Positions 1,586 through 37,071 of a stretch of DNA of 64,000 nucleotides are shown one piece after another. This DNA comes from a virus: IMG/VR virus record IMGVR_UViG_3300045303_000152, positions 1 to 64,000 of that record; one strand, 5' to 3'. The notes under the pieces are model-generated. The model saw nothing but the letters and a program-made list of their open reading frames with translations, was not told where the DNA came from and did not search any database. The first letter of the stretch is position 1; every line of letters begins with the position of its first letter. Position numbers and translations under genes: made by a program.

Positions 1586-3583
1586 ATGCAAGAGTTCGCA
1601 TCAGCCAACGTCGTTACAGCAATGCAGCAGTTGCCAACCATTCTTCAACAAGTAATTCACAAAACACGATACGCTCGCTGGAATGACGAACTGGGCCGGC
1701 GCGAGAATTGGTACGAGACGGTCGCCCGCTACTGCAACTTCTTTCAAAAGCACATCAAGAACAAGTTCGATTGCGACCTGGGCACGATACACAACCCCAG
1801 CACGCCCCTTGGGCAAGCTTTCCACGCCATCTACACCCTTCAAGCCATGCCGAGCATGCGCTGCTTCATGTCAGCCGGCCCAGCTCTCGAGGCTGAGGCA
1901 TTCTTTGGTTTCAATTGTACCTATCGCGCCGTCAACGACGTGCGGGCCTTCGATGAGATCCTCTACGTCCTCATGTGCGCATGCGGCGTAGGCTTTTCAG
2001 TAGAGCGGCAATTCGTTGGCCAATTGCCAATGATACCCAAGCGGCTCAAGCCAAGCACAGAGGTAATCGTCGTCGAAGACAGCCGCGAAGGCTGGGCCAA
2101 GGCATTCGCGCGATTGATCGAGCGGCTGTACCAGGGCAACATTCCTAGCTGGGATATCAGCAAGCTTCGCCCAGCCGGCGCTCGGCTGAAGACTACCGGC
2201 GGGTATTCAAGTGGGCCTGCCCCGTTGGTCGATCTGTTCAAGTTCACCGTCCACACGTTCGAGCAAGCCAAGAGCCGCCGCCTCAACTCCCTCGAATGCC
2301 ACGACATAGTATGCAAGATTGGTGATATTGTCGTCGTGGGCGGCGTGCGCCGTGCAGCGCTGATCTCACTCAGCAACCCGAGCGATATGCGGTTGCGCCA
2401 CGCCAAGATGGGTGATTGGCATCACACGACCCCTTGGCGAGCTTTGGCCAACAACTCCGCATGCTATACCGAGCGACCGACGACTGGCGCCTTTATGAAC
2501 GAATGGCTCGCACTCTATGACAGCAAGTCGGGCGAGCGGGGTATCGTCAATCGCGAGGCGCTGATTAACAAGAGTAGGAATATTGGCCGCCGCGTGCATT
2601 GGGATGATTTTGCCGATACCGAGGCTGAGGATACCATCGACTTCGGCGTGAACCCCTGCTCAGAAATCATTTTGCGCTCGCAGCAAACCTGCAACCTGAG
2701 CGAAGGCATTGTACGCGCCAACGACACCATACAGACTTTAGTGTGGAAGGCCCAAATCGCATCTATGCTCGGCACGTGGCAGGCGACGTTGAGCGACTAC
2801 GGCTATGTAGGCCCCGACTGGAAAAAGAATGCTGAGGAGGAGCGGTTGCTGGGCGTAAGCCTTACCGGCATCATGGATAACCCGATACTCTCGCATCGGC
2901 ATCACCCGCACTTCGAGTCCACCCTTGTCGCCATGCGGGCAGCCGCCAGTAAGACCAACCACGATTGGAGTAGCAAGCTCGGCATCAACTCTGCCGCTGC
3001 CGTTACCTGCGTCAAGCCGAGCGGCACCGTCAGTCAGCTTGTCGATAGCAGCAGCGGCATCCACTCGCGCCATGCGCCCAAGTATATTCGCCGCGTCACG
3101 ATGGATAACCATAACCCGATCTGTCAGTTTATGAAGGATTGTGGCCTGCCCAACGAGCCAAGCGCTTACAAGCCACACGTGAACACGATATTCTCATTTC
3201 CTGTACGGGCGCCTAACACCAACGAGAGGTTATTCAACCGCTCGGCCATCGAGCAGTTGGAGCATTGGCATGCCATCAATAGTGTTTGGGCAGAACACAG
3301 TGTAAGCTGCACGATCACAGCGGGTGAGGATGAGTGGCCGCAAGTCGGTGGCTGGGTGTGGCAGCACTTCGATGAGATTTCGGGCGTGAGCTTTCTGCCC
3401 AAGTCGAACTCGGTTTACCGGCAGATGCCCTACGAGGCTTGCGACGAGGCTACTCTCAAAAAGCTCGAAGCCCAAATGCCATCAACCATTGACTGGGACA
3501 AGCTAAAGAGCTACGAAGCTGTGGACACGACCGAAAACAGCCAGCAGCTCGCCTGCACCGGCGACAAGTGTGAGATGATCTGA
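1586..3583 (+). CDS. nrdJ: ribonucleotide reductase class II (adenosylcobalamin-dependent, monomeric RTPR type)
   Basis: FNC, VVVGGVRRAALI, NPCSEI active-site motif, TCVKPSGTVSQL, C-terminal CxxxxC; no beta-subunit gene adjacent. Confidence 0.93.
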   Translation: MQEFASANVVTAMQQLPTILQQVIHKTRYARWNDELGRRENWYETVARYCNFFQKHIKNKFDCDLGTIHNPSTPLGQAFHAIYTLQAMPSMRCFMSAGPALEAEAFFGFNCTYRAVNDVRAFDEILYVLMCACGVGFSVERQFVGQLPMIPKRLKPSTEVIVVEDSREGWAKAFARLIERLYQGNIPSWDISKLRPAGARLKTTGGYSSGPAPLVDLFKFTVHTFEQAKSRRLNSLECHDIVCKIGDIVVVGGVRRAALISLSNPSDMRLRHAKMGDWHHTTPWRALANNSACYTERPTTGAFMNEWLALYDSKSGERGIVNREALINKSRNIGRRVHWDDFADTEAEDTIDFGVNPCSEIILRSQQTCNLSEGIVRANDTIQTLVWKAQIASMLGTWQATLSDYGYVGPDWKKNAEEERLLGVSLTGIMDNPILSHRHHPHFESTLVAMRAAASKTNHDWSSKLGINSAAAVTCVKPSGTVSQLVDSSSGIHSRHAPKYIRRVTMDNHNPICQFMKDCGLPNEPSAYKPHVNTIFSFPVRAPNTNERLFNRSAIEQLEHWHAINSVWAEHSVSCTITAGEDEWPQVGGWVWQHFDEISGVSFLPKSNSVYRQMPYEACDEATLKKLEAQMPSTIDWDKLKSYEAVDTTENSQQLACTGDKCEMI

Positions 3584-4258: not shown

Positions 4259-4511
4259 GCAAGCCGTGCAGGAAATTTGTGGTCGTCTGTTTGTAGAGCT
4301 TGGGTATAGTATGGCAGTGATTAGCCAATGCACTGCTTGTACTGAAGCATCAACCAGAAGACAGGTTAGGGAATATGTCAACGCTCACGGCGATCCGCAA
4401 GCTCACGCCCAGCCAGCACGACGACTTGAACAGGTTGCAGAAGCTGCACGCAAAGCAGGAACGGCTACTATCACAGCACTTCCTGATGGCGATGGGCAAG
4501 CTAACGAATAA
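4113..4511 (+). CDS. helix-turn-helix protein resembling the DnaA C-terminal domain
   Basis: IIKETLAKYDV...AVQEICGRLFVELGYSMAVISQ pattern; overlaps both neighbours. Confidence 0.5.
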   Translation: MDTAPVSYTIPPQAKRPRAKQIIKETLAKYDVPIWMVYNNPKIRPPLAKQAVQEICGRLFVELGYSMAVISQCTACTEASTRRQVREYVNAHGDPQAHAQPARRLEQVAEAARKAGTATITALPDGDGQANE

Positions 4512-5352
4512 AACCAGCATCGACCAAATCGCCTATCTACTACGAGCCGGCAACATCAACGGCGTTACTAATCTCGTCGACGACGCCATTGAGAAATTCA
4601 GCAACGTGCTTGGCGCCGTGCTGGCTCTGGCTGGTCACAACGAAGCGAGTGTTTGGGCTAAGAAGTTCCACAGGCTAGGCAAGTCGGCTGGCTTTTTGGA
4701 TTTCACTGATCGCCGTGTTGCCACCGCTATCGCCAGCAACAAGTTCAATTTCACCACCAATCTCATGCGGCAACAGCACAACTTGGTGCGGCTCGCGCTA
4801 ATCAACGAGCTGCGAGGCGATGCGACATATGAGCAGATCGCCACCCGGTTCACGCATATGGTCGGCTTGACAGATCAGCAGTACAAATCTGTTGGCGTGT
4901 ATCGGCGCGCGCTGCAAGCTCAGCGCATTCAAAACCAGACAGAAGTCGATCCCGTCGAAATCGTGAAGGTCGATGATAGCGTTGACGTGCTCTCTCCCTT
5001 CATGATCGACCGTATGGTCAATCAGTACGCACAAGTCCAACGCAAAGCCCGAGCCGATACCATCGCCGCGACCGATGGCTTGAAGCTGATAAACCAGGGT
5101 AGATACCTCGCCGTGAGCCAAGCAATGGACTCTACTGGCGCCAACGGTACCAAGACATGGCTGCACACGACTTCAGCCGAGCCTCGAGAAACTCACCTCG
5201 ATACGGTGGGCACAACTATAGACATTGACGAGCCATTTGATGTTGGCGGGGTATCAATGCTATACCCTGGAGACCAAAGCTTAGGCGCCGGGCCAGAGGA
5301 TGTAATAAACTGCAAGTGTGGAGTATCTTACGACTTGCAACCAGGAGACTAA
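4375..5352 (+). CDS. phage minor head protein (MuF/SPP1 gp7-like)
   Basis: C-terminal KTW...R.TH...PFDVGG..MLYPGD...GPEDVINCKC signature. Confidence 0.85.
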   Translation: MSTLTAIRKLTPSQHDDLNRLQKLHAKQERLLSQHFLMAMGKLTNKTSIDQIAYLLRAGNINGVTNLVDDAIEKFSNVLGAVLALAGHNEASVWAKKFHRLGKSAGFLDFTDRRVATAIASNKFNFTTNLMRQQHNLVRLALINELRGDATYEQIATRFTHMVGLTDQQYKSVGVYRRALQAQRIQNQTEVDPVEIVKVDDSVDVLSPFMIDRMVNQYAQVQRKARADTIAATDGLKLINQGRYLAVSQAMDSTGANGTKTWLHTTSAEPRETHLDTVGTTIDIDEPFDVGGVSMLYPGDQSLGAGPEDVINCKCGVSYDLQPGD

Positions 5353-18393: not shown

Positions 18394-21300
18394 TTAGTTG
18401 ACTGTCGACCCACGACGATCGTTGGGAGATCCCACCGTCGTCACATGACTAACGCCGTCAATCGCATAACCCGCCGCACCACCAACCCCATGATACCCGC
18501 CACCTAAGTCTACACCATCCTGACCAGCTAGCCCAGGCCCACCACCCGCGCCATTCGTACCACCACCCAAACCGCCAGCATCTGCCGTACCGGCCACACC
18601 GGGGAAAAAGCCTGCTCCTCCAGCGCCCGGTACGGTACCTGCGCCGCCGCCACCGCCTACAGAAGCTATAAAGAAACCACCCGTACTGCCTAGACCGCCA
18701 CCGCCGCCACCGCCCCACAGCTCAGCCGTTGCAGCACTATCATCAAGCGTGATGGGTACTCGCGTATAAAGTGCAGTGCCACCTTGATATCCATCATTAT
18801 GGCCGACTTGGTTACCATCACCACCAGCACCTTGAATTCTACCATAGATGGTTATGGCAATTGGGAAGCCAACCGGCCAACCCGTTTGCACATCAAAGGC
18901 CCGTAGGCTTGTATTTGCAGAGCCAACGACGACGCCCGAGTTAATGATGACAGTTAGATTGACGCCATAGACCACGTCACTGTCAGTCGGTACTGGGAAG
19001 ATAGTGTTATGCAAGTCGTACAGATTGATATTGTTAATCGGCGTATCAATCGTGATGACGCGATCAATCAAAGCCGTGGCTGACTGCTCGGTGAACAGCA
19101 TCTCTTCTGCTGTTATTTCATAGCGATCGGCAAAGGGCGCGACTTGTGTTATCTGTATGGGCAACGTGATTACATTGCCCATCTCATCTTGGGAACCGTG
19201 ATAGCTCATCTGGTACCCACCGCCCTCGGCAGGTACTAGCACGTTACTGTTGCGCTGTATCGAAAAACTAACCTTTCTCGGTGGCGAGACGAACCTGCCC
19301 ACCTGAAGCTGATTGGCACGATCGGCAGCGTTGGACCCGAAAGCCGGTATCCAAAGCGCGTAACGCTTTAGAATTACTGCCGTGCCGCTGAATGACGCAG
19401 CCTCAAGATCAGTCAGCACGGCTCCTGATCTAAAGTTATTTTGCTTGTCGAGCGGGTCACACGGGTTACGCGTGCCGTAGAAGACCCAGGACTCTGTGAC
19501 TTGCTTGGTCGGCTGCTCTTGTACCTTTATGCTGCCTTGGATTATGTTGCTCTCATCGTAAGTATAGGCCGTAGTAGCAATAGCCCTCAGCACCTGCAAC
19601 TGTAGCAACTGGTTTAGGTTATCCCACCAGATTATCAAGCCGGCATCTTGAATTAAGTCCTTCAATAGCTCATTGATGCCTGTGGGCTGAGCAATAAGCC
19701 GTGAGTAGAGCAAGCCTAGGTTGGTCGAAACTTCCGTATCCCACGTGCTAAGAGGAATTACGCTCACCGGCACTGCGGTATAGCCCGTCAGCAAAGTATA
19801 GGCAGCCCGAGCCGGGGTTTGCGCGTTGATGTACAAACATTGCTGCACCCTATCTTCAGAACTATGATCGGCAGCAGTCGAGCCAAACTGGGCGCGAATG
19901 ATATTGAACCTATCACCCGATGTTGTGCTCCATGCAGCCCCCGGCACTTGAAAACTCTGAGCAACTCTAATATTCGCGTTGCCCTTGACCACTCGTATTT
20001 CGTCCATCCAGCCATTGAGGCTGTTGGCACCTGCAGAATTGCCGTCGCCCCCGATTGTCGGCCGGCTGGTACCATTTAAGTAGTTATTGACATCTGTATA
20101 GTCTAAACCTTGCTGCACTCCATTGAGGTACAACCGCGTAGTGCCGGAATATCTAACCAACGTGACAAAGTACCAAGTTGCAGTCGTCAACGTCGTCGCG
20201 CCGGTAATCCTATCTGCTGCGTTGGTGTGGTACACCAGCACATTACCAGCCGAGAGTTTGATGGTTGGATATAGCCCCGTCACACCTGACGGCCGGCTAT
20301 CGTATAGCGTGCGCGCAACGCCCACGGCATTCAAGCGCAACCAGAAATCAATTTGGAAGTCACCTGTACCGAACGCAAAGCCAGCCGAGCCGTCGCTGCT
20401 AAGGTAATCACCCGTACCATCAAACAGAGCGCTCGCCGTACCAAACTTGAATTGTGCAGTATCTATCTGCGCGTTGCCATTAGCAGTCGTAGTATGCCCA
20501 TTCCCCGAACTATCCGTGAAAGTCGTGCTGGCATCGACACCATCACAATGCAACAGCAGGGTTGTAAACGCGTCGATGCCAGGATCACGGTAGAAATTAA
20601 CTATCTCCGTGCCGGCGATGTTCACATAGCCTTGCGTGTCATATTCTATACTGCCAATACCCGTTGGTGTAATCACCATAGTGAGATCGACTGCAAGAAT
20701 ATTAGCCAGCAAAAAGCCTGAGTTAGAAAGTGGAGCCTGAGCGCGGTCGTCGTCGGCAAACTTAAGAATATCCTGAGCCGTGACGCTGAACACATCCTTA
20801 GCATCTGGCCCATCAAAGCTATCGGTATACAAGTAACGAGTGATGAAATCAGTTATCTCATCACCAATATAGCCATGCTTCAAGCGGAAAGGTTGGGCTC
20901 GCCTGAATATCTTGCTGGCGCGAAACTTGCCCCAATGCGTGCCAACGTCGTAGAACTCGCCATAGCTCGCGCCTGGACTATCAGAAAACTTGACGACGCA
21001 TTTGGCTCGCGTACCCAAATCCTGCCCCAGCGACAGCATGTTAGGCGTGTATTGGATATCAGTGATGCGAGGCTCTGCATCGAAGTCGATGGGTAAATAA
21101 CTAGCTGCCTTGGCATAGCGCAGAGTTTCAGTCGTAGCACCGAAGTAGCTGCGAGCTCTAAACATACCACAGTAGGATAGGTTCACAGCTGCAGTAGAGT
21201 ACAAACCAGCGTAACCCGCAGCAGTGATGGTACTACTAGAATCTATATATGATAGTTGGAATAAAGCCGGCTCGTCGCTAAGCTCACCGCGCCACACCTT

Positions 21301-22551
21301 GGCTCGAAGCTCAACACCATTGGCAACATCACTTACACTGATAGCGTCATATCTTATCCAGATATTTTCACCAACAAGATAGTCGAAACTGAGTGTAGCT
21401 AACGTTGAAACAACGCCAGCGTATCTCTTCTTGATAAAGAGCGAGTTGAGGCCGCCAAGTATACAATAATATCCCGAACCCGCAGCACCGACAGTTGTAT
21501 CCCCACGCAATACAATGCCTGGACTAGAAGCACTACTGCCCACTCGCACCCAAGCAATGGCAGAGACATCGTCGGTTGCTGGAAACAGCGTCCAGGCAGC
21601 AAATGAGGGCACACCCGTGCTGACAGTGCGTTCGAACTTCAGGCAACGATCTATAGAAAAACCAAACGCGTTGTCCGTCAGCAAAGTATAGGCCCGCGTT
21701 GGCGGGGTGAAAGCCGCAGTCCAACGTGCGACATTAGAAATACGGAACTCGTCAATCCAGCCGAGCCAGTCTCCTCCAGCAGCCCGCTCACCTTCCCTAC
21801 CAATCGCTAAGTTGTTGCTGCTATCGTTTATTGCGCCGGTGATGGCAACGGTGCTTTTTACAACGCCATCTATATACATGGTGATCACATTGCCTGAGCG
21901 AACAGCAGCAAAGTGATGCCATCCCGTATTGGTCAACCCAGTATATTGAGTGCCACTGCTACAGGCAATTACGGTAGAACCCTGCCCGACAAAGAAACTA
22001 AATTGATTGCTGACTACACGCGCGATCCTAAATGAAAGAGTTGAGGTAGTCTCTGTGCTATTGACTTGACCGGCAATGTGCCTCTGAACACCCCCAGCGC
22101 CATCGGAAGCGGCGATTTTGAACCAGCAGTCGATGGTCCAGTCACCTGATCCTAGCGTGAAATCCACATGATCGGGCGTATCGACGTAATCTCCAGTTCC
22201 ATCGAACAAGCCCGATGCAGTGCCAAACTCCTTATCAGCCGTATCGAGCTGTGCATTACCGTTAGCAGTCCAAGTATGTGCCGAGCCTCCCTGGTTACTG
22301 TCAACGAATGAGGTACTAGCATCAGTACCATCCATATGAAGCAAAACCTTGGTGTAAAAATCATTGCCACCAGGGTTAAGAATACCAGATGTATCATAGC
22401 CCTGCGCTGTGACTGAAGCTTGCGCCCAATAGATAGTAAAGTTGGGGACACTCTTACCATCACGTGAATTCTCAAACCGCGTAATGCGGTAAGCGTCGAG
22501 ATCCATCTCGACGAATTCAACTACCTCACCGACTATCGGGGCTGCCATCAC
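18394..22551 (-). CDS. central tail/baseplate hub protein with two LamG/ConA-like domains and a Gly-rich C-terminus
   Basis: two copies of LLHxDG.DAST.F.DS...TANGNAQ.DTA...FGTAS.LFDGTGDY...G..DE.R; position after the tape measure. Confidence 0.8.
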   Translation of the reverse strand: MMAAPIVGEVVEFVEMDLDAYRITRFENSRDGKSVPNFTIYWAQASVTAQGYDTSGILNPGGNDFYTKVLLHMDGTDASTSFVDSNQGGSAHTWTANGNAQLDTADKEFGTASGLFDGTGDYVDTPDHVDFTLGSGDWTIDCWFKIAASDGAGGVQRHIAGQVNSTETTSTLSFRIARVVSNQFSFFVGQGSTVIACSSGTQYTGLTNTGWHHFAAVRSGNVITMYIDGVVKSTVAITGAINDSSNNLAIGREGERAAGGDWLGWIDEFRISNVARWTAAFTPPTRAYTLLTDNAFGFSIDRCLKFERTVSTGVPSFAAWTLFPATDDVSAIAWVRVGSSASSPGIVLRGDTTVGAAGSGYYCILGGLNSLFIKKRYAGVVSTLATLSFDYLVGENIWIRYDAISVSDVANGVELRAKVWRGELSDEPALFQLSYIDSSSTITAAGYAGLYSTAAVNLSYCGMFRARSYFGATTETLRYAKAASYLPIDFDAEPRITDIQYTPNMLSLGQDLGTRAKCVVKFSDSPGASYGEFYDVGTHWGKFRASKIFRRAQPFRLKHGYIGDEITDFITRYLYTDSFDGPDAKDVFSVTAQDILKFADDDRAQAPLSNSGFLLANILAVDLTMVITPTGIGSIEYDTQGYVNIAGTEIVNFYRDPGIDAFTTLLLHCDGVDASTTFTDSSGNGHTTTANGNAQIDTAQFKFGTASALFDGTGDYLSSDGSAGFAFGTGDFQIDFWLRLNAVGVARTLYDSRPSGVTGLYPTIKLSAGNVLVYHTNAADRITGATTLTTATWYFVTLVRYSGTTRLYLNGVQQGLDYTDVNNYLNGTSRPTIGGDGNSAGANSLNGWMDEIRVVKGNANIRVAQSFQVPGAAWSTTSGDRFNIIRAQFGSTAADHSSEDRVQQCLYINAQTPARAAYTLLTGYTAVPVSVIPLSTWDTEVSTNLGLLYSRLIAQPTGINELLKDLIQDAGLIIWWDNLNQLLQLQVLRAIATTAYTYDESNIIQGSIKVQEQPTKQVTESWVFYGTRNPCDPLDKQNNFRSGAVLTDLEAASFSGTAVILKRYALWIPAFGSNAADRANQLQVGRFVSPPRKVSFSIQRNSNVLVPAEGGGYQMSYHGSQDEMGNVITLPIQITQVAPFADRYEITAEEMLFTEQSATALIDRVITIDTPINNINLYDLHNTIFPVPTDSDVVYGVNLTVIINSGVVVGSANTSLRAFDVQTGWPVGFPIAITIYGRIQGAGGDGNQVGHNDGYQGGTALYTRVPITLDDSAATAELWGGGGGGGLGSTGGFFIASVGGGGGAGTVPGAGGAGFFPGVAGTADAGGLGGGTNGAGGGPGLAGQDGVDLGGGYHGVGGAAGYAIDGVSHVTTVGSPNDRRGSTVN

Positions 22552-29282: not shown

Positions 29283-30353
29283 TCAGGGCGCCAAATTGTC
29301 CACGGCCTTGCTGAAGAACACGCCGAGGTCCGAAGAGACCACCCGCATGTCCCAAGCCATACGGCCCTGGAAGAAGTCGCTATGCGCACGCGCCTCGCGG
29401 CCACGTTCGATCACGCCGCCAAGCTGGTTGGTGAAACCCGGTACGAGGCCGGTCCAGCTAAAGGTGGCGATAGCAGTCGGGCTATCCAGCGCGGGGTTCG
29501 GGTCGATGTAGCACAGCAGCATCGACTCCTCGTCCGCAATGAACTGGAAGCTGTCGGTAGCGCCTTCCGCAGCCGAGTTGTAAACGCTGCGAGCGACCAC
29601 GAGGTTGTCCACCTCGAACAAGCTGGCAAGAATGCCATCGTCCGCAACACCGGTCTGCGTGTACTTGATCCGGTCGGTGATGTCCGGGTGCGAACGGAGC
29701 ACCCGCTTCACTGCCGAGCCGAGCACCAGCGTATTCGGGCGGTAGCCCGTGTTCCGCATGATGCGTTCCTTGGCTGCGTCGATCACGTCGATTGGCGTCG
29801 AGGCGGGATCGTTGAAGTTCAGGAACTGGTTGGTACCCGGCGTCGAGGTACCCCCGAGGTAATCGACGGCCCAGATACCGGTAGCAAAGAACCGCTGACA
29901 CCACATGCGATCCTGCTTAATCATGTTCTTCTGCGTCAGCAGGGTCGTCGCATTCTCGTCGAGCCGGATCGGGTCGTCGGCATTCGAGCGCTGGCGGTCA
30001 TCGACCGTGTGCTCCAAGCCGTACTCGATCGCGGTGTAGGTGCCGCTGCTCACCTTGTAGCCAGCCTGTTGCGGGCGTCCGCCGAGGGGACGGGGCTGAA
30101 CCTCATCCCTCCAGAAGTAGCCACGGTCGTAGGTGACGTACAAGTCGGTCTGCTTCAGCACGGGGATCTGCGACGATGCCCGCTGGGCAACGAAGTTCGC
30201 TTCGTCCTGCACGAAAGCTACCGAGAAGTTTGTGAGGTAGCGATCCACGTGGAGCGCGCCCTCGATGTTGGTGGCGGTTGGGCTGTTCTTGCTCATAGCC
30301 CCGAAGATATCGGCGCCGCCAGCCTTCAACGTCATTACATCACTCTGTTTCAT
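29283..30353 (-). CDS. major capsid protein (HK97 fold)
   Basis: LHVDRYLTNFSVAF, TGYRPNTLVLG, HPDITDRIKYT; strong codon bias; AGGAG SD. Confidence 0.9.
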   Translation of the reverse strand: MKQSDVMTLKAGGADIFGAMSKNSPTATNIEGALHVDRYLTNFSVAFVQDEANFVAQRASSQIPVLKQTDLYVTYDRGYFWRDEVQPRPLGGRPQQAGYKVSSGTYTAIEYGLEHTVDDRQRSNADDPIRLDENATTLLTQKNMIKQDRMWCQRFFATGIWAVDYLGGTSTPGTNQFLNFNDPASTPIDVIDAAKERIMRNTGYRPNTLVLGSAVKRVLRSHPDITDRIKYTQTGVADDGILASLFEVDNLVVARSVYNSAAEGATDSFQFIADEESMLLCYIDPNPALDSPTAIATFSWTGLVPGFTNQLGGVIERGREARAHSDFFQGRMAWDMRVVSSDLGVFFSKAVDNLAP

Positions 30354-30815: not shown

Positions 30816-32645
30816 TTAGTTTGCCTCCCCCTGCCAAGCATCGAAGCCCTCTGGGTCTTCCATGCGTGCCTTGCGCATGGCTTCCTGACGCTTCATGCCG
30901 CCCTGCTGGAGATCGGTAACGCGCTTCTCGAAGCTGCTACCACCCGAGCTCTTGAGCGTTTCGACCGTCGTGGCGCGCGTGCCAATACGCTGGAAGGCGA
31001 GCGAGGCGGTCTTGTTGGCCGCTGCGAACGCATTCTTGGCGTAGGTACGCTGAGCCTCTGGCATGCTTTCGAGCGACTTGAGGAAAGCAACCTTGTCCTC
31101 AGTCTTGCCCGGCAGGTGCGCCAGCTCGGTCTCGGCACGCTTGGTCAGCTCGACCTCTTCGCGCTTCTCACGCTCGACCTTGAAGTCCTTCTCGAGCTGA
31201 AGGGTGCGCGCCTGACTGGCCTTGAGCACGGCAAACATGCTGTCGCCCACGACCGACTTGAGGATCGTCTGGCCCTCGATAGCGAGGATCTCATCGCTGG
31301 CGATGGCCTTCTTCACCTCTGTAAGCCGGGCCGACTTGTCGAGTGCCAGGAACTTCTCCTTCGAGGCATCGTCCTTGCAAATGTTGTCGTAGTGCTCGCG
31401 CTCGTCGCCGGTCAGCTCGGCAACCTTCCTGGCAACAGCCAGCTCCTGCTCGGCCTTTTCACGGGCCTTCTTCTCCGTCGCCGCCGCTTTGGTCATCTCG
31501 TCGACCTTGGCAGACAGTGCATCCAGCTGCTTCTTCACTTCTGCGCTGGCGCTGGCTCCAGCATTTTTGTTCACAACCATGTTGTCCTCGTCCTTCTCTG
31601 CTTGAACCAGGGCCTTACTAACCGCCCCTTCTACTTCTGGCATGGCGGTTTTAAGGCCGGCCAGAAACCCTTCGACGCTAGTACGCAGCATATTCTGCCT
31701 AGTAGCGTCATCTACGTCTTGATCTGCGATAATCGAGCGAAGCGAAGTATCCAACGCGCTAATCAAAGGCCACGCGGCCGACATCATATCCTGATATTTC
31801 TTGTCGGCCTCGTACGTGTCGAGCACTTCGGTAAACGTCATTGCGCCATCGGATGGATCGATATAACGCTTGAGAATTTTACCAACTAGCCCTGGCGGTG
31901 TCTTGTCCTTCGCCGGTGCCTTACCCTTGCCCTTTGGAGGCGCCTTCTTGGGCTTCGCCGCAGCATCAACAGCGGCGTGAGCAGCAGCAGTATTGTCAGG
32001 ATGAGGATTGGCAACAGCATTGTCGATGGCGTCGTGAGCAGCACTAGCAGCATCGGCGCCATCAGGGCTATCTGTACCATCACCATTGTCGGCCCCCTCT
32101 TCTGCATTAGGGTCAGTGTTATCGGCCCCGCCCGCGTCGGCATTTAACTCGTCTGCCATCTGAGCCGCTGGGTCTGTCCCATCAGGTGCCGGGTTCGAGC
32201 CGTCATCCTGCAGCGGGTTCGGCATGTCGCCAGGGTGGCTATCCGGATACGCGATATGCCATGCATCGCGCAAGCGATTGAGCACGTCGTCGATGGCGTC
32301 GGTCGGAATGTGGTACTTCTGGGGCTTCACAGCGCCGCCGTTAGTGCCATCAACCGTCGAGGCTGCGTTGACGTTATCGCCAAATGCATCGATGGCCTTA
32401 TCCAGTCGAGCCTTCGAAATGTCGCCACCGGGCTCTTCGGTCAGCAACAACTTCCAGGTCTTGGTGTCCTTTGGGTCACCAACGTAGGCGAAATCCTCAG
32501 CCGGGTAGTCAAAGCGACCAACACTCTTCGTGATCGACTTGCGTTTCATGATCGCCATGACGGCTCCTTGCTGAGCTGGGACGTCAACAGTTGAGATTTC
32601 GCTGAGGCGAAACCTACGCATGATGTTCTTTTTAGGCGCAGCCAC
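30816..32645 (-). CDS. scaffolding protein with an N-terminal protease-like strand (EISTVDVPA)
   Basis: acidic low-complexity middle, C-terminal coiled coil; lies between protease and capsid genes. Confidence 0.72.
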   Translation of the reverse strand: MAAPKKNIMRRFRLSEISTVDVPAQQGAVMAIMKRKSITKSVGRFDYPAEDFAYVGDPKDTKTWKLLLTEEPGGDISKARLDKAIDAFGDNVNAASTVDGTNGGAVKPQKYHIPTDAIDDVLNRLRDAWHIAYPDSHPGDMPNPLQDDGSNPAPDGTDPAAQMADELNADAGGADNTDPNAEEGADNGDGTDSPDGADAASAAHDAIDNAVANPHPDNTAAAHAAVDAAAKPKKAPPKGKGKAPAKDKTPPGLVGKILKRYIDPSDGAMTFTEVLDTYEADKKYQDMMSAAWPLISALDTSLRSIIADQDVDDATRQNMLRTSVEGFLAGLKTAMPEVEGAVSKALVQAEKDEDNMVVNKNAGASASAEVKKQLDALSAKVDEMTKAAATEKKAREKAEQELAVARKVAELTGDEREHYDNICKDDASKEKFLALDKSARLTEVKKAIASDEILAIEGQTILKSVVGDSMFAVLKASQARTLQLEKDFKVEREKREEVELTKRAETELAHLPGKTEDKVAFLKSLESMPEAQRTYAKNAFAAANKTASLAFQRIGTRATTVETLKSSGGSSFEKRVTDLQQGGMKRQEAMRKARMEDPEGFDAWQGEAN

Positions 32646-32655
32646 CTAACTCTCC

Positions 32656-33705
32656 CTACTCGACTTCTTCATCAACTAGGCGATGACCGCCAATGCTGAA
32701 GCCGGTAAGGGTACCGTCTTCAAAGTCCTTCAACACCTTCTTGTCGGTCGGCTTCACGCCAACCATCAAGCCTGTCGTGCCAGACTTCAACCCCATCGCC
32801 TTAGCGATCTCGGTTGTCATCGGCCATGCAAACACAACCTCGCCGGCCTGCTTGCCCTTGTGCATGACCTTCATGACACGGTGCTCTTCCATAAACTTGG
32901 TAGCAGCTTCGAGCATCGCGTCTTCTGGTATGTGGTCGCCCTGCAAATCGTAGTATTCTTCACCGCCGACCTTGCTGACGATAGCCCAACCAAACACCAA
33001 ACCTAGGTTCTTCAGGAATTTGAATACGCCTAGGTTTGGCTCGGCGGCGCCCTTCTCTGTAATGCTGTCGGCCCAACTACCATCGTCAACCTCTTCGAAA
33101 ATTTCAGGACCCAGCTCGATTGGCCCCGTGTAGGGTTCAACCTTACTAAGATCCATGCTGCCAACATCGTAGCTAATGCTAACATGAGGACTATAGTCAG
33201 GATAATCCCAACTACAACCATGAACTTTACAAAGCTCATTGAAGCGCCGATCAAGACTGGGACTTGCGAACTTGAGTACTACTGCCCCCTTGTCCCCCAA
33301 AGGCTCGACTACTCGGCCACGCTGGCTCTTGATGACAACGCTGTCATCATCCTGCACAGGCCAGTCCACAGCATCGGAACTATGTGCGACCGTAACATGC
33401 ATGTCGTGCGGCTGTAGGGTTTTCTCGAACCCCTGCGACTTGGCCCACTTGATGATGTCAGCTGCATTCTCGACATTGCGTCGGCCGTACAGGGTAGCAT
33501 TCTTGACCTTGTGTATCCAGCGCGTGCCACCACTTGGCTTCTTGTACTGCTGGCTGACCGCCGACCAAGCCGAACGAAAGGCAATCTCCTCCGACTTTCC
33601 ACCTTGTAGCTGGGCGTTGACCACCCTGCGAAACAGGGTTTGCGCCGCCACAGGTAGCGGGTTCTTCACACTTGTCGGAAGATCTTGGTTTCTGGCATAC
33701 GGCAC
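32656..33705 (-). CDS. fusion: ChaB domain + Acb1-like 2H phosphodiesterase + XkdF-like prohead serine protease
   Basis: PY...DLP.SV...LP..AQ..F....N...AF..AW.AV (ChaB); HVT and HVS 2H motifs; VFGWA..DLQGD..MH..TGFSIGG (protease); likely GTG start 33705 (track start 33729). Confidence 0.82.
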   Translation of the reverse strand: MPYARNQDLPTSVKNPLPVAAQTLFRRVVNAQLQGGKSEEIAFRSAWSAVSQQYKKPSGGTRWIHKVKNATLYGRRNVENAADIIKWAKSQGFEKTLQPHDMHVTVAHSSDAVDWPVQDDDSVVIKSQRGRVVEPLGDKGAVVLKFASPSLDRRFNELCKVHGCSWDYPDYSPHVSISYDVGSMDLSKVEPYTGPIELGPEIFEEVDDGSWADSITEKGAAEPNLGVFKFLKNLGLVFGWAIVSKVGGEEYYDLQGDHIPEDAMLEAATKFMEEHRVMKVMHKGKQAGEVVFAWPMTTEIAKAMGLKSGTTGLMVGVKPTDKKVLKDFEDGTLTGFSIGGHRLVDEEVE

Positions 33706-33757
33706 TGTGGTTACATCCCTCGGCCCCAAGCGTTCTATTTAGAAAATGCCTCGTGCG

Positions 33758-33830: not shown

Positions 33831-34478
33831 CTACCATCTAAAGAAATAATCGTGACCGTTTTGCACGCCAGTACACGTCATGCCAAGGTCCGTGAGAAAG
33901 CCAATCGCCCGCTTCATCTTGTCGAGCTTCTCTTCAACGATCACAAAAGGCTTGCAGCGCATGATTGTTTCGCGCGCACCAAGCAGGCCCGCGTACTCAT
34001 GCCCTTCCAAATCCAGCTTCAGTAAATCGAGCTGGTCGAGCTTGAGGCTATCGACCGCCATGCATGGAAAGTGCTTAGGCTCGCCCCGCGACTTGGTGTG
34101 TGGGTGAGCTGCCCATCCAACTGCCCGTGGCGTCATGGCAAGCTGACCGGCCTTATCACTAAGCGCCAACCTGTACAGATCGAGGGCTCGATCAGACCCG
34201 CGCTCAGGGCCGTACACCTCAGTATTCTTTTCCAGGCAGGCAAAAATGTGCGGTATTGGTTCGAAGGCAATTACCCGCTTGAAGTAGCGGGCCAGATGAA
34301 TAGTCCAAATGCCGACGCATGCCCCGCCATCTATTGCAACGTTCAGCCGACTACCGCAAGCCTGCACGACTTGCTGGATATCATCGTATTGGTAGCTGGG
34401 CAGCCCATTGATAAATGGGCCTTCGAGCCAACGAGTCTTAATCTCATCAGGACTCCACACACCGTTTACGTGCTTCAT
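33831..34478 (-). CDS. FkbM-family methyltransferase (paralogue of 11928..12578)
   Basis: IDGGACVG, AFEP, LKLDLEGHE, KPFVIVE. Confidence 0.9.
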   Translation of the reverse strand: MKHVNGVWSPDEIKTRWLEGPFINGLPSYQYDDIQQVVQACGSRLNVAIDGGACVGIWTIHLARYFKRVIAFEPIPHIFACLEKNTEVYGPERGSDRALDLYRLALSDKAGQLAMTPRAVGWAAHPHTKSRGEPKHFPCMAVDSLKLDQLDLLKLDLEGHEYAGLLGARETIMRCKPFVIVEEKLDKMKRAIGFLTDLGMTCTGVQNGHDYFFRW

Positions 34479-35450: not shown

Positions 35451-36992
35451 TTATTTGCTAGCCGCTGTGTTACGCGGCAGCCGTTGCATTTCTGGACTTT
35501 GCTTTGGATTACCCTGCGCATCTACCTCACCTGTACCGGGCGTGTGTGGATCAACGCTGTTAGCTGGTGGCAACACCTTGGGCAATGGTGCCGGCGGCTG
35601 GTTTGGGTCGTTAGGATCAGCCGTCAACACCTCTTGCTCGGGTTGAAACTTGGTACGGCTGACGCCGAGCATGTCGCGCACGTCATTGACGACGGGATCA
35701 TCCGGCGCGAGCGTTGCACCACTCTGGCTCAAGCGGGCAAGCGTCGTGGCAACCTCGACAACGTCCTTCGGGGCTATGTTCTCAGCTACGAGGTGAGGCC
35801 TAAGCCTATCATCAAAGCCGTTAAGCGCCCACAATGGAGTAATGATATCATGTTGCATAGCAGCTACGATGGTACGGAGCACGCTGTTGGCAATCAGATA
35901 GACATTTTGCGACTTATCTGAAGCCACGGCCTTTGCACCGCCAGCCGTACCGCCCCCGAGCATGAGATGCTCGATGCCCATGATGCGCGCCATTTCACGT
36001 TGGATGCGATCAATCGCAGCGCTGATCTCGCTCAGGCCCAAGGCTGGGCCGCTCAGCAGGTCCAAACTCCACTGCTTTTCGCTAGAAACTACCGGGCCGC
36101 CAGCCGTGATGGTCGTAAAAGTCTGGCTATCCAACAGCAGGCCGGTATCCGACTGCTTGACCTGGGTTTGGACCATATCGACCATACCCTGGACCAACCG
36201 TGCGCCTTCCTCAGCCGTCATGTTGCCGGCCTTAACCGCCTGATTGATGGCCGACAACGGCGCCCGACCTACGGGAATACCACGCAAATCCCGCTCATAG
36301 GCCCGCACCTCAAGCTCAAGAAAGCGTCGCAGCCGCGAGTATGGCTCGACCAAATGCCGAAAGACCCCCAAACCCTCGGGGCTATCGGTGAGGTTATCTT
36401 CCTTCATATAAACCAGCTTGCTTCTAGGCAAGCCTAGCAATGCATTGTTCTGTGGATTGCGCTGAAAGCAGCCCAGCACGTGGCCAACCTCATCCACCGC
36501 CCATTGCTCGATGGTATGCTGTGGCCGCACCTCAATGTCAGAAATGCCGATCAGCCCGTCGATTGACCGATGCTCGGCAGTCCACTCTTGAACGCTAAAG
36601 CCATGAAAGCGAAACATGCCGGCCTGTCGCACGATGTTAGGCCAGGGAGTATGCGTATTGGCCAGCACATCGTTCACGAAGTCAGCCATATCCTTCGCTT
36701 CACTACTAGCGTCGGCAGGCTGGGCCGTCCATTTGGGGTTTGAAATCAGGTTGAGGAAATAGTGAACGCCGGCCGCTACCACGCTGGCGTTTACGGCTAG
36801 CTCGCTCGAGAGTATCCAGCGCTGCCGGCCATGCCACTGTGACGAGGCATCCTTATTCTGAATGTAGCCGCCCCAAGTGGCAGTACCAGTAGAACCCTGA
36901 GTTTGGTAAGGCGTTGGTAGAGGAAGTTGCGGTGCGCCCCAGAGGCTTCGACCCCACTTCCTGAGTTGATCTATGCTTAGTGGATTTGCCAT
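35451..36992 (-). CDS. portal protein
   Basis: about 510 aa directly after TerL; GFSVQEW, SPEGLG, ERDLRGIPV. Confidence 0.85.
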   Translation of the reverse strand: MANPLSIDQLRKWGRSLWGAPQLPLPTPYQTQGSTGTATWGGYIQNKDASSQWHGRQRWILSSELAVNASVVAAGVHYFLNLISNPKWTAQPADASSEAKDMADFVNDVLANTHTPWPNIVRQAGMFRFHGFSVQEWTAEHRSIDGLIGISDIEVRPQHTIEQWAVDEVGHVLGCFQRNPQNNALLGLPRSKLVYMKEDNLTDSPEGLGVFRHLVEPYSRLRRFLELEVRAYERDLRGIPVGRAPLSAINQAVKAGNMTAEEGARLVQGMVDMVQTQVKQSDTGLLLDSQTFTTITAGGPVVSSEKQWSLDLLSGPALGLSEISAAIDRIQREMARIMGIEHLMLGGGTAGGAKAVASDKSQNVYLIANSVLRTIVAAMQHDIITPLWALNGFDDRLRPHLVAENIAPKDVVEVATTLARLSQSGATLAPDDPVVNDVRDMLGVSRTKFQPEQEVLTADPNDPNQPPAPLPKVLPPANSVDPHTPGTGEVDAQGNPKQSPEMQRLPRNTAASK

Positions 36993-37071
36993 CCGTCCGT
37001 GACCCCTCAAGAGCGCCCAAAGTTTATTTTGTGCGCCAGACTAGCATAAAGCTGTCTCGCGAACAACCTGC

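What the first reader, a model, noticed from the sequence alone, without database searches (positions are those of the whole stretch)
32656..33729. Anti-CBASS Acb1-like phosphodiesterase fused into the prohead protease (ChaB-Acb1-XkdF)
Seen: one ORF with a ChaB domain (aa ~9-75), a 2H domain with H111-V-T and H182-V-S motifs, a DYPDYSPH context and a downstream Trp (aa ~78-220), and a prohead protease domain (aa ~240-357). Known: T4 Acb1 is a 2H phosphoesterase that degrades cyclic oligonucleotide signals, and prohead proteases have been reported to activate some CBASS cyclases. Inference: the immune trigger carries its own antidote in the same polypeptide, matching timing, dose and location. 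It might also be packaged or released by self-cleavage.
Basis: partly seen in the sequence, partly recalled or inferred. Interest (0 to 1): 0.82.

Follow-up and report, generated by a model that had tools for sequence, protein, structure and literature searches.

The report
Acb1 enzyme fused to head protease
An uncultured soil phage makes its capsid-maturation protease as one chain with an intact-looking copy of Acb1, the enzyme phages use to destroy bacterial CBASS alarm nucleotides. The design is common in metagenomes and untested, and it most likely places the enzyme inside the phage head.

Summary
One minus-strand ORF (32656-33729; likely start GTG 33705, 349 aa) encodes three domains: ChaB, Acb1 (Pfam PF23474, E 1.9e-38) and an XkdF-type prohead protease. 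The middle domain groups with solved Acb1 (VIA Z 17.5, rmsd 1.7 A), not with LigT (Z about 10). It keeps both HxT/S motifs, the lid Trp and the adenine-contacting Glu.

The fusion is not a one-off. I collected 150 metagenomic proteins with the order Acb1 then XkdF. The nearest cultured relatives carry a bare 133-160 aa XkdF gene in the same slot.

The same Acb1 clade is also fused to portals, MuF and polyvalent proteins. What the carriers share is a capsid-interior location, so head-loaded cargo explains the fusion better than "the trigger carries its antidote". That reading is timely, because prohead proteases do activate CBASS, but it is unproven.

The general idea of 2H enzymes on head proteins was published in 2017 and 2022. 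This scan has already reported the same fusion on other DNA.

Side finding: the XkdF fold stops just after its catalytic Ser. A conserved motif at the N-terminus of the next gene (a scaffold-like protein) is predicted to complete or dock onto it.

The parts
32656..33729 (-). ORF encoding ChaB-Acb1-XkdF (357 aa from TTG 33729). The probable true start is GTG 33705, giving 349 aa. The stop is TAG at 32656-32658.
   Evidence: P0001 (95% identical) is 349 aa
33511..33681 (-). ChaB domain (aa 17-73 by Pfam; aa 10-75 by fold)
   Evidence: PF06150 E 3.7e-11; 1sg7 Z 9.1, rmsd 1.7 A
33082..33495 (-). Acb1-type 2H phosphodiesterase domain (aa 79-216 by Pfam; aa 78-223 by fold)
   Evidence: PF23474 E 1.9e-38; same coordinates in the genome search; 7t27 Z 17.5; Foldseek 7t26 E 1.4e-8
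33391..33399 (-). First catalytic motif, H111-V-T113
   Evidence: H111 and T113 are at least 90% conserved in 100 homologues and invariant in a wider sample; aligned to the H-T-T of solved Acb1
33178..33186 (-). Second catalytic motif, H182-V-S184, within DYPDYSPHVS
   Evidence: H182 is invariant; aligned to DYPDYRPHIT of solved Acb1. Homologues mostly have Thr where this protein has Ser.
33073..33096 (-). C-terminal lid region of the Acb1 domain: E212 aligns to the adenine-contacting Glu and W219 to the lid Trp of FBB1 Acb1
   Evidence: HMMER alignments; residue roles from Hobbs et al. 2022, PMC9117128; E209 invariant, W conserved
32659..33036 (-). XkdF-type (assemblin-like) prohead protease domain, aa 232-357, ending 12 residues after the catalytic Ser
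   Evidence: PF14550 E 2.5e-8; the only PF14550 match in the 110-kb record; T4 gp21 Z 8.5
32860..32862 (-). His290, the probable catalytic His of the protease
   Evidence: invariant in 100 homologues and in more distant single-chain relatives; the His-to-Ser spacing of 55 is my own knowledge of T4 gp21 (His85/Ser140) and was not tested
32695..32697 (-). Ser345 in G-F-S-I-G-G, the probable catalytic Ser
   Evidence: invariant
32541..32639 (-). N-terminal motif of the next gene (aa 3-35: KKNIMRRFRLSEISTVDVPAQQGAVMAIMKRK), predicted to dock on or complete the protease domain
   Evidence: weak match to HK97-type Peptidase_S78 profile positions 128-158 (E 0.02); conserved at the start of the downstream gene in about 32 of 37 related viral loci; contiguous with the protease in natural single-chain relatives; complex-prediction result; fold of single-chain relative L034
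30816..32645 (-). 609-aa scaffold-like protein with its own GGAGAG ribosome-binding site, 10 nt after the protease stop
   Evidence: PHROG 19463/24785, function unknown; sits where cultured relatives place a similar gene between XkdF and the capsid gene
35451..37010 (-). Mu-type portal protein (context: head module)
   Evidence: PF06074; phrog_113
29283..30353 (-). Major capsid protein (context: head module)
   Evidence: phrog_1005 E 4e-79; 48-49% identical to Erythrobacter phage capsid proteins

Best explanation
The gene encodes this phage's only recognisable capsid-maturation (prohead) protease, of the XkdF/assemblin-like type. It carries two passenger domains on its N-terminal side: a ChaB domain, the usual partner in this clade, and a catalytically intact Acb1-family 2H phosphodiesterase inserted between ChaB and the protease.

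The gene sits in the late head module, so it is made together with scaffold and capsid proteins (inferred from gene order). The protease domain is predicted to dock on a conserved motif at the N-terminus of the adjacent scaffold-like protein, which would draw the whole chain into the procapsid interior (inferred).

The Acb1 domain most likely hydrolyses CBASS-type cyclic di- and trinucleotides (3'3'-cGAMP, cUA, cAAA). This is inferred from family membership, fold and conserved ligand-contacting residues. It could act in two ways:
- as head-loaded cargo that enters the next host with the DNA;
- through whatever pool stays free in the cytoplasm late in infection.

Whether the domains are cut apart by the protease is unknown.
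For: Domain identities come (Acb1 Z 17.5, rmsd 1.7 A; LigT-type about 10).

Conservation:
- Catalytic H111/T113/H182, the Glu and the lid Trp are conserved across 100 homologues and across 50 diverse carriers.
- Protease His290 and Ser345 are invariant.

Place in the genome:
- It is the only PF14550 hit in the 110-kb record. The sole HK97-type hit is the weak one in the adjacent ORF.
- The head module is syntenic with Roseobacter phage RDJL Phi 1 and Erythrobacter phage R6L, where a bare 133-160 aa XkdF gene holds the same slot.

Recurrence:
- 150 collected proteins have Acb1 N-terminal to XkdF, 67 of them with ChaB.
- Close XkdF relatives carry ChaB only, VapB/ParB-like or unknown N-termini.
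- The Acb1 domain alone finds 2125 cluster representatives. The top 150 have a median length of 606 aa and only 5 are 200 aa or shorter.
- Carriers are XkdF, three portal families, MuF, DUF2213, ART and polyvalent modules.
- The solved Pam3 portal (8hds) ends in this domain.

Docking on the scaffold-like protein (complex prediction):
- Score 0.68, best of 3 controls 0.02. That mark was reached by 58 of 80 solved complexes and 2 of 110 mismatched pairs.
- The runs share at least 66% of contacts and the partner's pLDDT is at least 53.
- These are effectively halves of a split fold, so the pass may reflect likeness to solved single-chain proteases.

Published support:
- The head-packaging idea for 2H domains: Iyer et al. 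2017 (PMC5512222) and 2022 (PMC9503650).
- Virion mass spectrometry of Stenotrophomonas phage DLP3 found its XkdF-type protease, weakly, with 2 peptides (PMC7326821).

No Rnl2-type RNA ligase or RtcB was found in the record.
Against: - Nothing here shows enzyme activity, packaging or cleavage.
- The XkdF family has never been shown biochemically to be a protease, as far as I could find.
- The Acb1 lid is not a free C-terminus here; it runs into the linker to XkdF, which could alter substrate capture.
- Viral 2H phosphodiesterases with conserved active sites differ markedly in substrate (bioRxiv 10.1101/2025.08.21.671373).
- CBASS fires late in infection, so an injected enzyme is not obviously needed early, and enzyme locked in capsids cannot reach cytoplasmic signals.
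- The host is unknown, so its CBASS content is unknown.
- The record is only about 85% complete.
Confidence: 0.55

Rival explanations
1. Trigger-plus-antidote. XkdF-type proteases activate host CD-NTases, and selection joined Acb1 to the protease so that the signal-destroying enzyme is made at the same time, in the same amount and in the same place as the trigger.
For: - Prohead proteases activate CBASS, either by cleaving a CD-NTase loop or through the scaffold domain.
- XkdF is the single most frequent identified partner of this Acb1 clade: 14 of 50 sampled representatives and 32 of 150.
- DUF2213, another protein of the scaffold/protease position in head modules, is also a partner.
- On a FastTree of Acb1 domains the XkdF association needs at least 19 changes, which is compatible with repeated fusion. 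That tree is weakly resolved.
Against: - The same Acb1 clade rides on portals, MuF and polyvalent proteins, which are not proteases.
- The XkdF slot also carries unrelated passengers.
- No HK97-type (PF04586), ClpP or T4-type protease family appeared among partners in the sample of 50.
- A catalytic enzyme acting on a diffusible nucleotide does not need 1:1 linkage.
- Co-transcription in the late operon would give the same timing without a fusion.
- No paper I found links the two.
Confidence: 0.15
2. The 2H domain has a different substrate from canonical Acb1. Candidates are RNA 2',3'-cyclic phosphate ends, 2'-5' oligoadenylates, or other immune nucleotides such as larger cyclic oligoadenylates. 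It would serve RNA end-healing or evasion of a system other than CBASS.
For: - The 2H superfamily covers all these chemistries (PMC5512222).
- Viral 2H enzymes with the same active site show distinct specificities.
- The second motif is HxS here where relatives have HxT.
- PHROG 755 labels the relatives 'RNA ligase'.
Against: - The sequence and fold are much closer to Acb1 than to LigT-type enzymes.
- The Glu and Trp that contact the cyclic dinucleotide in solved Acb1 are conserved.
- All 10 Acb1 homologues assayed by Hobbs et al. (T4 Acb1 plus 9 more) cleaved cGAMP and cAAA.
- No Rnl2-type RNA ligase or RtcB partner is in the record. The T4 Rnl1 search was uninformative because its control did not ring.
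Confidence: 0.15
3. Cytoplasmic enzyme only. The fusion is a way to express Acb1 late, and the protease releases it by self-cleavage. It acts in the cytoplasm and is not carried in virions.
For: - CBASS signalling starts late, after prohead formation, which is when a late-gene product is needed.
- A low-confidence linker at aa 221-240 separates Acb1 from XkdF.
Against: - No cleavage motif could be identified.
- Independent fusions to portal C-termini and to MuF, which sit inside the capsid, are hard to explain by timing of expression alone.
Confidence: 0.15

Closest known systems
Acb1 anti-CBASS nuclease (phage T4 gene 57B; Erwinia phage FBB1 Acb1, PDB 7T26/7T27; Pfam PF23474; Hobbs et al. 2022, PMC9117128)
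   Same: Same family by Pfam (131.9 bits) and by fold (Z 17.5, rmsd 1.7 A over 135 of 140 residues). It keeps the HxT/HxS tetrad, the DYPDY.PH context, the adenine-contacting Glu and the lid Trp.
   Different: Canonical Acb1 is a free-standing protein of about 150 aa with a free C-terminal lid, encoded in an anti-defence island. Here it is an internal domain of an essential late head gene, its lid runs into a linker, and it is only 26% identical to FBB1 Acb1.
2H phosphoesterase domains fused to portal or MuF, and head-packaged 'polyvalent' effectors (Iyer, Burroughs, Anand, de Souza, Aravind 2017, PMC5512222; Iyer et al. 2022, PMC9503650). A solved example of the protein is the cyanophage Pam3 portal gp3, PDB 8HDS.
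   Same: The same Acb1-clade domain sits on a capsid-interior protein; the Pam3 portal C-terminus is the best PDB sequence match (E 1.6e-40 with the family profile). Those papers proposed that such domains are packaged, injected and degrade immune nucleotides.
   Different: The passages I read name MuF and portal as carriers of 2H, and name the head peptidase only as a carrier of Nudix. Here the carrier is the XkdF protease and the cargo lies N-terminal to it. The Pam3 paper does not mention the domain. A 2025 preprint lists 'proteases' among extra domains of viral 2H enzymes without comment.
XkdF-type putative prohead protease (Pfam PF14550); T4 gp21 (PDB 5JBL) and herpesvirus assemblin fold; bare XkdF genes of Roseobacter phage RDJL Phi 1 (gp71) and Erythrobacter phage vB_EliS_R6L (gp94)
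   Same: Same Pfam family, the same slot between portal/adaptor and scaffold/capsid genes, a conserved His and G-F-S-I-G-G Ser, and a fold match to gp21.
   Different: The cultured relatives have only the 133-160 aa protease domain. This protein adds about 225 residues of ChaB and Acb1. The domain also ends 12 residues after the Ser, whereas gp21 continues.
T4 internal proteins and Alt (capsid-targeted, cut by gp21, injected with the DNA)
   Same: They work like the proposed mechanism: counter-defence or host-modifying proteins loaded into the prohead core and delivered to the next cell. This rests on established T4 biology (my knowledge); Alt is summarised in PMC5512222.
   Different: T4 uses a short capsid-targeting peptide on separate small proteins. 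Here the cargo is covalently part of the protease itself, and no cleavage has been shown.

Membership tests
Acb1 (PF23474) | Sequence match to the family model above its curated cut-off | tested here: met
   131.9 bits against a cut-off of 27, E 1.9e-38, profile positions 2-139 of 144; 134.4 bits in the genome search
Acb1 (PF23474) | Compact 2H fold closest to solved Acb1 rather than to LigT, CPDase or Usb1 | tested here: met
   7t27 Z 17.5, rmsd 1.7 A, 135 aligned; next come phage BCSR5 Acb1 at Z 13.7 and LigT-type enzymes at Z about 10, rmsd 3.8 A. Foldseek E 1.4e-8 against 1.2e-3. Based on a predicted model (pLDDT 89).
Acb1 (PF23474) | HxT/HxT catalytic tetrad | tested here: met
   H111-V-T113 and H182-V-S184. 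Ser replaces the second Thr, which is within the 2H Hx[TS] rule. Both His are conserved in homologues.
Acb1 (PF23474) | Ligand-contacting Glu (adenine N6) and lid Trp, plus stacking aromatics | tested here: inconclusive
   E212 and W219 align to the Glu and Trp near the C-terminus of FBB1 Acb1, and Y176 to an aromatic in DYPDY. The paper's residue numbers could not all be mapped onto the PDB chain numbering.
Acb1 (PF23474) | [quoted passage not shown] | not testable with these tools
   Needs enzyme assays and plaque assays.
LigT / 2'-5' RNA ligase-type 2H enzymes (PF13563, PF02834) | Sequence match above the family cut-off | tested here: not met
   PF13563 scores 14.6 bits against a cut-off of 27; PF02834 is not listed for this protein at E up to 1
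XkdF-type prohead protease (PF14550, assemblin-like fold) | Family match, position in the head module, conserved His and Ser | tested here: met
   34.4 bits against a cut-off of 24. It is the only such gene in the record and lies between the portal/adaptor genes and the scaffold/capsid genes. H290 and S345 are invariant.
XkdF-type prohead protease (PF14550, assemblin-like fold) | Fold like T4 gp21 or herpesvirus protease | tested here: met
   5jbl Z 8.5, rmsd 2.5 A, 107 aligned; VZV protease Z 5.0. In the single-chain relative L034, 5jbl gives Z 9.1 with 124 aligned and the next hit is Z 5.2. The Z values are moderate.
XkdF-type prohead protease (PF14550, assemblin-like fold) | Proteolysis of scaffold or capsid protein | not testable with these tools
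   I found no biochemical study of any XkdF-family member.
ChaB (PF06150) | Family match and fold | tested here: met
   43.9 bits against a cut-off of 27; 1sg7 Z 9.1, rmsd 1.7 A
Head-packaged effector fusions (portal-, MuF- or protease-anchored; Iyer et al. 2017/2022) | Effector domain covalently joined to a protein that resides inside the capsid | tested here: met
   Fused to the prohead protease. The same cargo is found on portals and MuF. That the protease resides inside the capsid is general phage knowledge, not shown for this phage.
Head-packaged effector fusions (portal-, MuF- or protease-anchored; Iyer et al. 2017/2022) | Cargo present in virions and delivered into the host | not testable with these tools
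   Only indirect evidence: the XkdF-type protease of phage DLP3 was detected weakly in virion mass spectrometry (PMC7326821).

The most novel reading that the evidence does not exclude
The fusion is a two-layer device against protease-sensing CBASS. First, the protease fold is genetically split, so it is completed only when it docks on the N-terminus of the scaffold protein. This would keep proteolytic activity, the CBASS trigger, confined to procapsids. Second, every protease chain carries its own Acb1, so any protease that does act in the cytoplasm is accompanied by an enzyme that destroys the resulting signal, and the same enzyme is then carried into the next host. The repeated joining of Acb1 to XkdF would then be adaptive trigger-antidote coupling and not merely cargo loading.
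Probability: 0.12. Interest if true: 0.8.

Novelty: new variant of a known kind. Interest (0 to 1): 0.5.

Why it matters
Acb1 is studied as a small free enzyme. This protein and hundreds of metagenomic relatives show that one large Acb1 clade is mostly built into head proteins: the protease, the portal or MuF. If the enzyme is carried in virions, phages would arrive already armed against cyclic-nucleotide immunity. That would change how the timing of CBASS evasion is understood.

Prohead proteases were recently shown to switch CBASS on, so a protease that carries Acb1 is a natural construct for testing whether trigger and counter-measure are coupled.

The apparent split of the protease fold between two genes, if real, would be a simple way to restrict protease activity to the assembling capsid.

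Tried and rejected
I used the search for related loci on viral contigs for gene neighbourhoods instead.
- No cultured phage in the INPHARED set has the whole architecture; 0 of 285 records cover 80% or more of the protein.
- I first thought the scaffold motif might follow the protease in the longer fused homologues found by protein search. Their tails (P0030, P0059, P0121 and others) do not contain it. It does appear in other single-chain relatives found in viral loci.
- I considered read-through or frameshift joining the protease and scaffold genes and rejected it. The in-frame continuation hits a second stop after 8 codons, the downstream gene has its own GGAGAG site, and the gaps and overlaps between the two genes in relatives fall in different frames.
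- An alignment mixing protease proteins with 60-aa scaffold fragments (A4) put the fragments in the wrong columns. I discarded it and used A5.
- I looked for a protease cleavage site in the Acb1-XkdF linker and could not identify one. The conserved E225-K226 is part of the Acb1 lid.
- Mapping all published FBB1 Acb1 residue numbers onto the PDB chain failed for W74 and Y12.
- The search for the T4 Rnl1 ligase family was uninformative because its control did not ring.
- Laying contigs of four public runs showed only fragments of 90-97% relatives in soil and rhizosphere metagenomes. One 180-nt contig in a metatranscriptome library does not show transcription.
- The literature searches on XkdF, PF14550 and DUF2213 gave no functional study.
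- The carrier-switch count on the Acb1 tree rests on a FastTree of a 145-aa domain, so I use it only as a weak indication.
Full report
**What is there.** The window belongs to a 109,752-bp linear viral record estimated at 85% complete. The ORF at 32656-33729 lies on the minus strand. The ORF listing starts it at TTG 33729. GTG 33705 is the better start: it follows an AGGGA by about 10 nt, a 95%-identical metagenomic protein is 349 aa long (P0001), and the ChaB homology begins at that residue.

**Domains.** Pfam finds three domains above their curated cut-offs:
- ChaB at 17-73 (E 3.7e-11)
- Acb1 PF23474 at 79-216 (E 1.9e-38, 131.9 bits against 27)
- Peptidase_S78_2/XkdF at 244-349 (E 2.5e-8)

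It does not.
- By sequence, the 2'-5' RNA ligase family scores 14.6 bits, below its cut-off of 27.
- An AlphaFold2 model built on 100 homologues has mean pLDDT 89.
- Foldseek ranks Acb1 of Erwinia phage FBB1 first (7t26, E 1.4e-8) and E. coli LigT at about 1e-3.
- An aligner independent of Foldseek gives 7t27 Z 17.5, rmsd 1.7 A, 135 of 140 residues. A second phage Acb1 (9q2y) scores Z 13.7, and LigT-type and CPDase enzymes score about 10 at rmsd 3.8 A.

HMMER alignments to solved Acb1 pair both His motifs. They also pair E212 with the Glu that contacts adenine N6, and W219 with the lid Trp (residue roles from Hobbs et al. 2022, PMC9117128). I could not map every published stacking residue, so that feature stays inconclusive.

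Hobbs et al. found that T4 Acb1 and all nine further homologues they assayed cleaved 3'3'-cGAMP and cAAA. A 2025 preprint warns that viral 2H enzymes with the same active site can differ in substrate (10.1101/2025.08.21.671373). The substrate is therefore inferred, not shown.

**Is the C-terminal domain the phage's prohead protease?**
- It is the only PF14550 match in the record. The only HK97-type match is a weak one in the adjacent ORF.
- The gene order is terminase, Mu-type portal, adaptor Ad1, DUF6527, FkbM methyltransferase, this gene, a 609-aa scaffold-like protein, a 122-aa protein, and the major capsid protein.
- By capsid protein, the nearest cultured relatives are Erythrobacter phages R6L and ZS04 (48-49% identity) and Roseobacter phage RDJL Phi 1. 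Their head modules are syntenic and carry a bare XkdF gene of 133-160 aa in the same slot.
- The domain matches T4 gp21 (5jbl, Z 8.5, rmsd 2.5 A, 107 residues) and, more weakly, varicella-zoster protease.
- His290 and Ser345 (G-F-S-I-G-G) are invariant in 100 homologues and in more distant relatives.

I found no biochemical work on any XkdF-family member, so "protease" remains a well-founded prediction.

**How common is the fusion, and what else carries this Acb1?**
- A search with the whole protein found 646 relatives of similar length. Nearly all of the best 120 carry Acb1 with XkdF, with or without ChaB, and all are from metagenomes.
- With my own domain profiles, 150 collected proteins have both domains, always with Acb1 on the N-terminal side. 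Of these, 67 also have ChaB.
- Close relatives of the XkdF domain alone show a variable N-terminal slot: ChaB only (199 aa), ChaB-Acb1, Acb1, VapB/ParB-like, or unknown.
- Searching with the Acb1 domain alone against 1.84 billion cluster representatives found 2125 hits. The top 150 have a median length of 606 aa, and only 5 are 200 aa or shorter.
- A one-in-three sample of those 150 gave XkdF 14, portals 7, DUF2213 4, MuF 4, ADP-ribosyltransferases, polyvalent-protein modules and Nudix.
- My labelling of all 150 gave XkdF 32, portal 27, MuF 15, solo 9 and other 67.
- Longer relatives include three portal families, MuF, Zeta-toxin-like kinase, ART and ParB fusions.
- In cultured phages the domain ends the portals of Rhizobium RHEph phages, Pseudomonas phiPSA1 and Synechococcus phages. 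It also ends the portal of cyanophage Pam3, whose structure paper does not mention it.
- Acb1 domains on different carriers are as similar to this one as those on other XkdF proteins; for example, portal-borne P0132 is 59% identical.
- On a FastTree the XkdF label needs at least 19 changes, against a shuffled mean of 30. This hints at repeated carrier exchange, but the tree is weak.

**What this says about mechanism.** Portal C-termini, MuF and the prohead protease share one property: they sit inside the capsid. Iyer et al. proposed in 2017 (PMC5512222) and 2022 (PMC9503650) that 2H domains on MuF or portal are packaged, injected and degrade immune nucleotides. They also noted Nudix on the head peptidase. 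The present protein is a protease-anchored form of that design, carrying a domain now known to be Acb1.

Prohead proteases activate CBASS by cutting a CD-NTase loop, or through the scaffold domain. It does not explain the portal and MuF fusions or the other passengers in the XkdF slot. A catalytic enzyme acting on a diffusible signal also has no clear need for 1:1 linkage. I give it about 15% as the selective reason, and rate head loading, with possible action of a free late pool, as most likely.

There is weak experimental support that XkdF-type proteases stay in virions: phage DLP3 virion mass spectrometry found its XkdF-type protease with two peptides (PMC7326821). An RNA-repair role is disfavoured by the fold ranking and by the absence of Rnl2-type ligase or RtcB in the record.

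**A side finding that bears on loading.**
- The XkdF domain ends 12 residues after Ser345, as it does in 164 of 185 relatives. T4 gp21 continues beyond that point.
- The next gene has its own GGAGAG site. It begins with RIMRxFxLxEISxVDxPAQxGAxxxIMKR.
- That stretch weakly matches positions 128-158 of the HK97-type protease profile, which lie after the catalytic Ser (E 0.02).
- The motif opens the downstream gene in about 32 of 37 related viral loci, whatever the protease carries.
- In natural single-chain relatives the motif follows the Ser in the same polypeptide.
- A model of one such relative (L034, pLDDT 74) extends the gp21 match from 107 to 124 aligned residues and from gp21 residue 151 to 172. 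It scores Z 9.1, with the next hit at 5.2.
- Complex prediction on XkdF 222-357 with scaffold residues 1-45 supports binding, with a score of 0.68 against 0.02 for the best of 3 controls. The mark was reached by 58 of 80 solved complexes and 2 of 110 mismatched pairs; the runs agree in at least 66% of contacts and the partner's pLDDT is at least 53. The interface runs along residues 260-268, 285-290 and 340-357, next to His290 and Ser345.

Because these look like halves of one fold, the pass may come from likeness to solved single-chain proteases. It could equally reflect substrate-like binding. Either way it suggests a direct tether between this protein and the scaffold.

**Novelty and verdict.** The fusion is real, intact-looking and common, but uncharacterised. 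I found no paper that describes or interprets Acb1 on a prohead protease. One preprint lists "proteases" among the extra domains of viral 2H enzymes. The general concept is published and untested. Earlier reports of this scan found the same fusion on other DNA and reached similar conclusions. I class it as a new variant of a known kind.

Relatives at 90-97% identity occur in soil and rhizosphere metagenomes. The host is unknown, though the capsid relatives suggest Alphaproteobacteria.

Noticed in passing
window 32541-32639 (-), with 32659-33036 (-): The XkdF protease fold seems to be split between two genes. The domain stops 12 residues after the catalytic Ser, and the next gene opens with a conserved motif (RIMRxFxLxEISxVDxPAQxGAxxxIMKR). 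That motif follows the Ser in single-chain relatives and is predicted to dock beside the active site.
   Followed up: yes
L091 4965-5363 (Roseobacter phage RDJL Phi 1 gp71, NC_015466.1): RefSeq calls this 133-aa protein 'DNA methyltransferase', yet its translation is just an XkdF protease domain ending in GFSIGG. PHROG 1530 carries the same label. The name probably spread from longer methyltransferase-protease fusions.
   Followed up: partly
window 4375-5352 (+): A MuF-like head-morphogenesis gene (PF04233, E 5e-9) lies about 30 kb from the head module and on the other strand, near a ribonucleotide reductase gene (1586-3583). In the cultured relatives MuF sits just before the XkdF gene.
   Followed up: no
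window 33831-34478 (-): An FkbM-family methyltransferase (PF05050, E 2.7e-12) holds the position directly before the protease gene, where RDJL Phi 1 and R6L have their MuF-like 'head morphogenesis' gene.
   Followed up: no
window 30816-32645 (-): The 609-aa scaffold-like protein has a long acidic, Ala/Pro/Gly/Asp-rich low-complexity stretch (about aa 140-250) followed by a Lys-rich patch. It matches no Pfam family and hits only PHROGs of unknown function.
   Followed up: no
alignment A5; proteins P0252, P0258, P0261, P0265 and others: Many short XkdF proteins without Acb1 share a conserved segment between a ChaB-like N-terminus and the protease (D.PG.GDVHV.AP.G..KKKPK). Its role is unknown; it could be a linker or a processing site.
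   Followed up: no
window 18394-22551 (-): A 1385-aa protein with two Laminin_G_3 (concanavalin-like) domains, probably a tail fibre or receptor-binding protein. It is followed by another ORF of 1117 aa with no family match.
   Followed up: no
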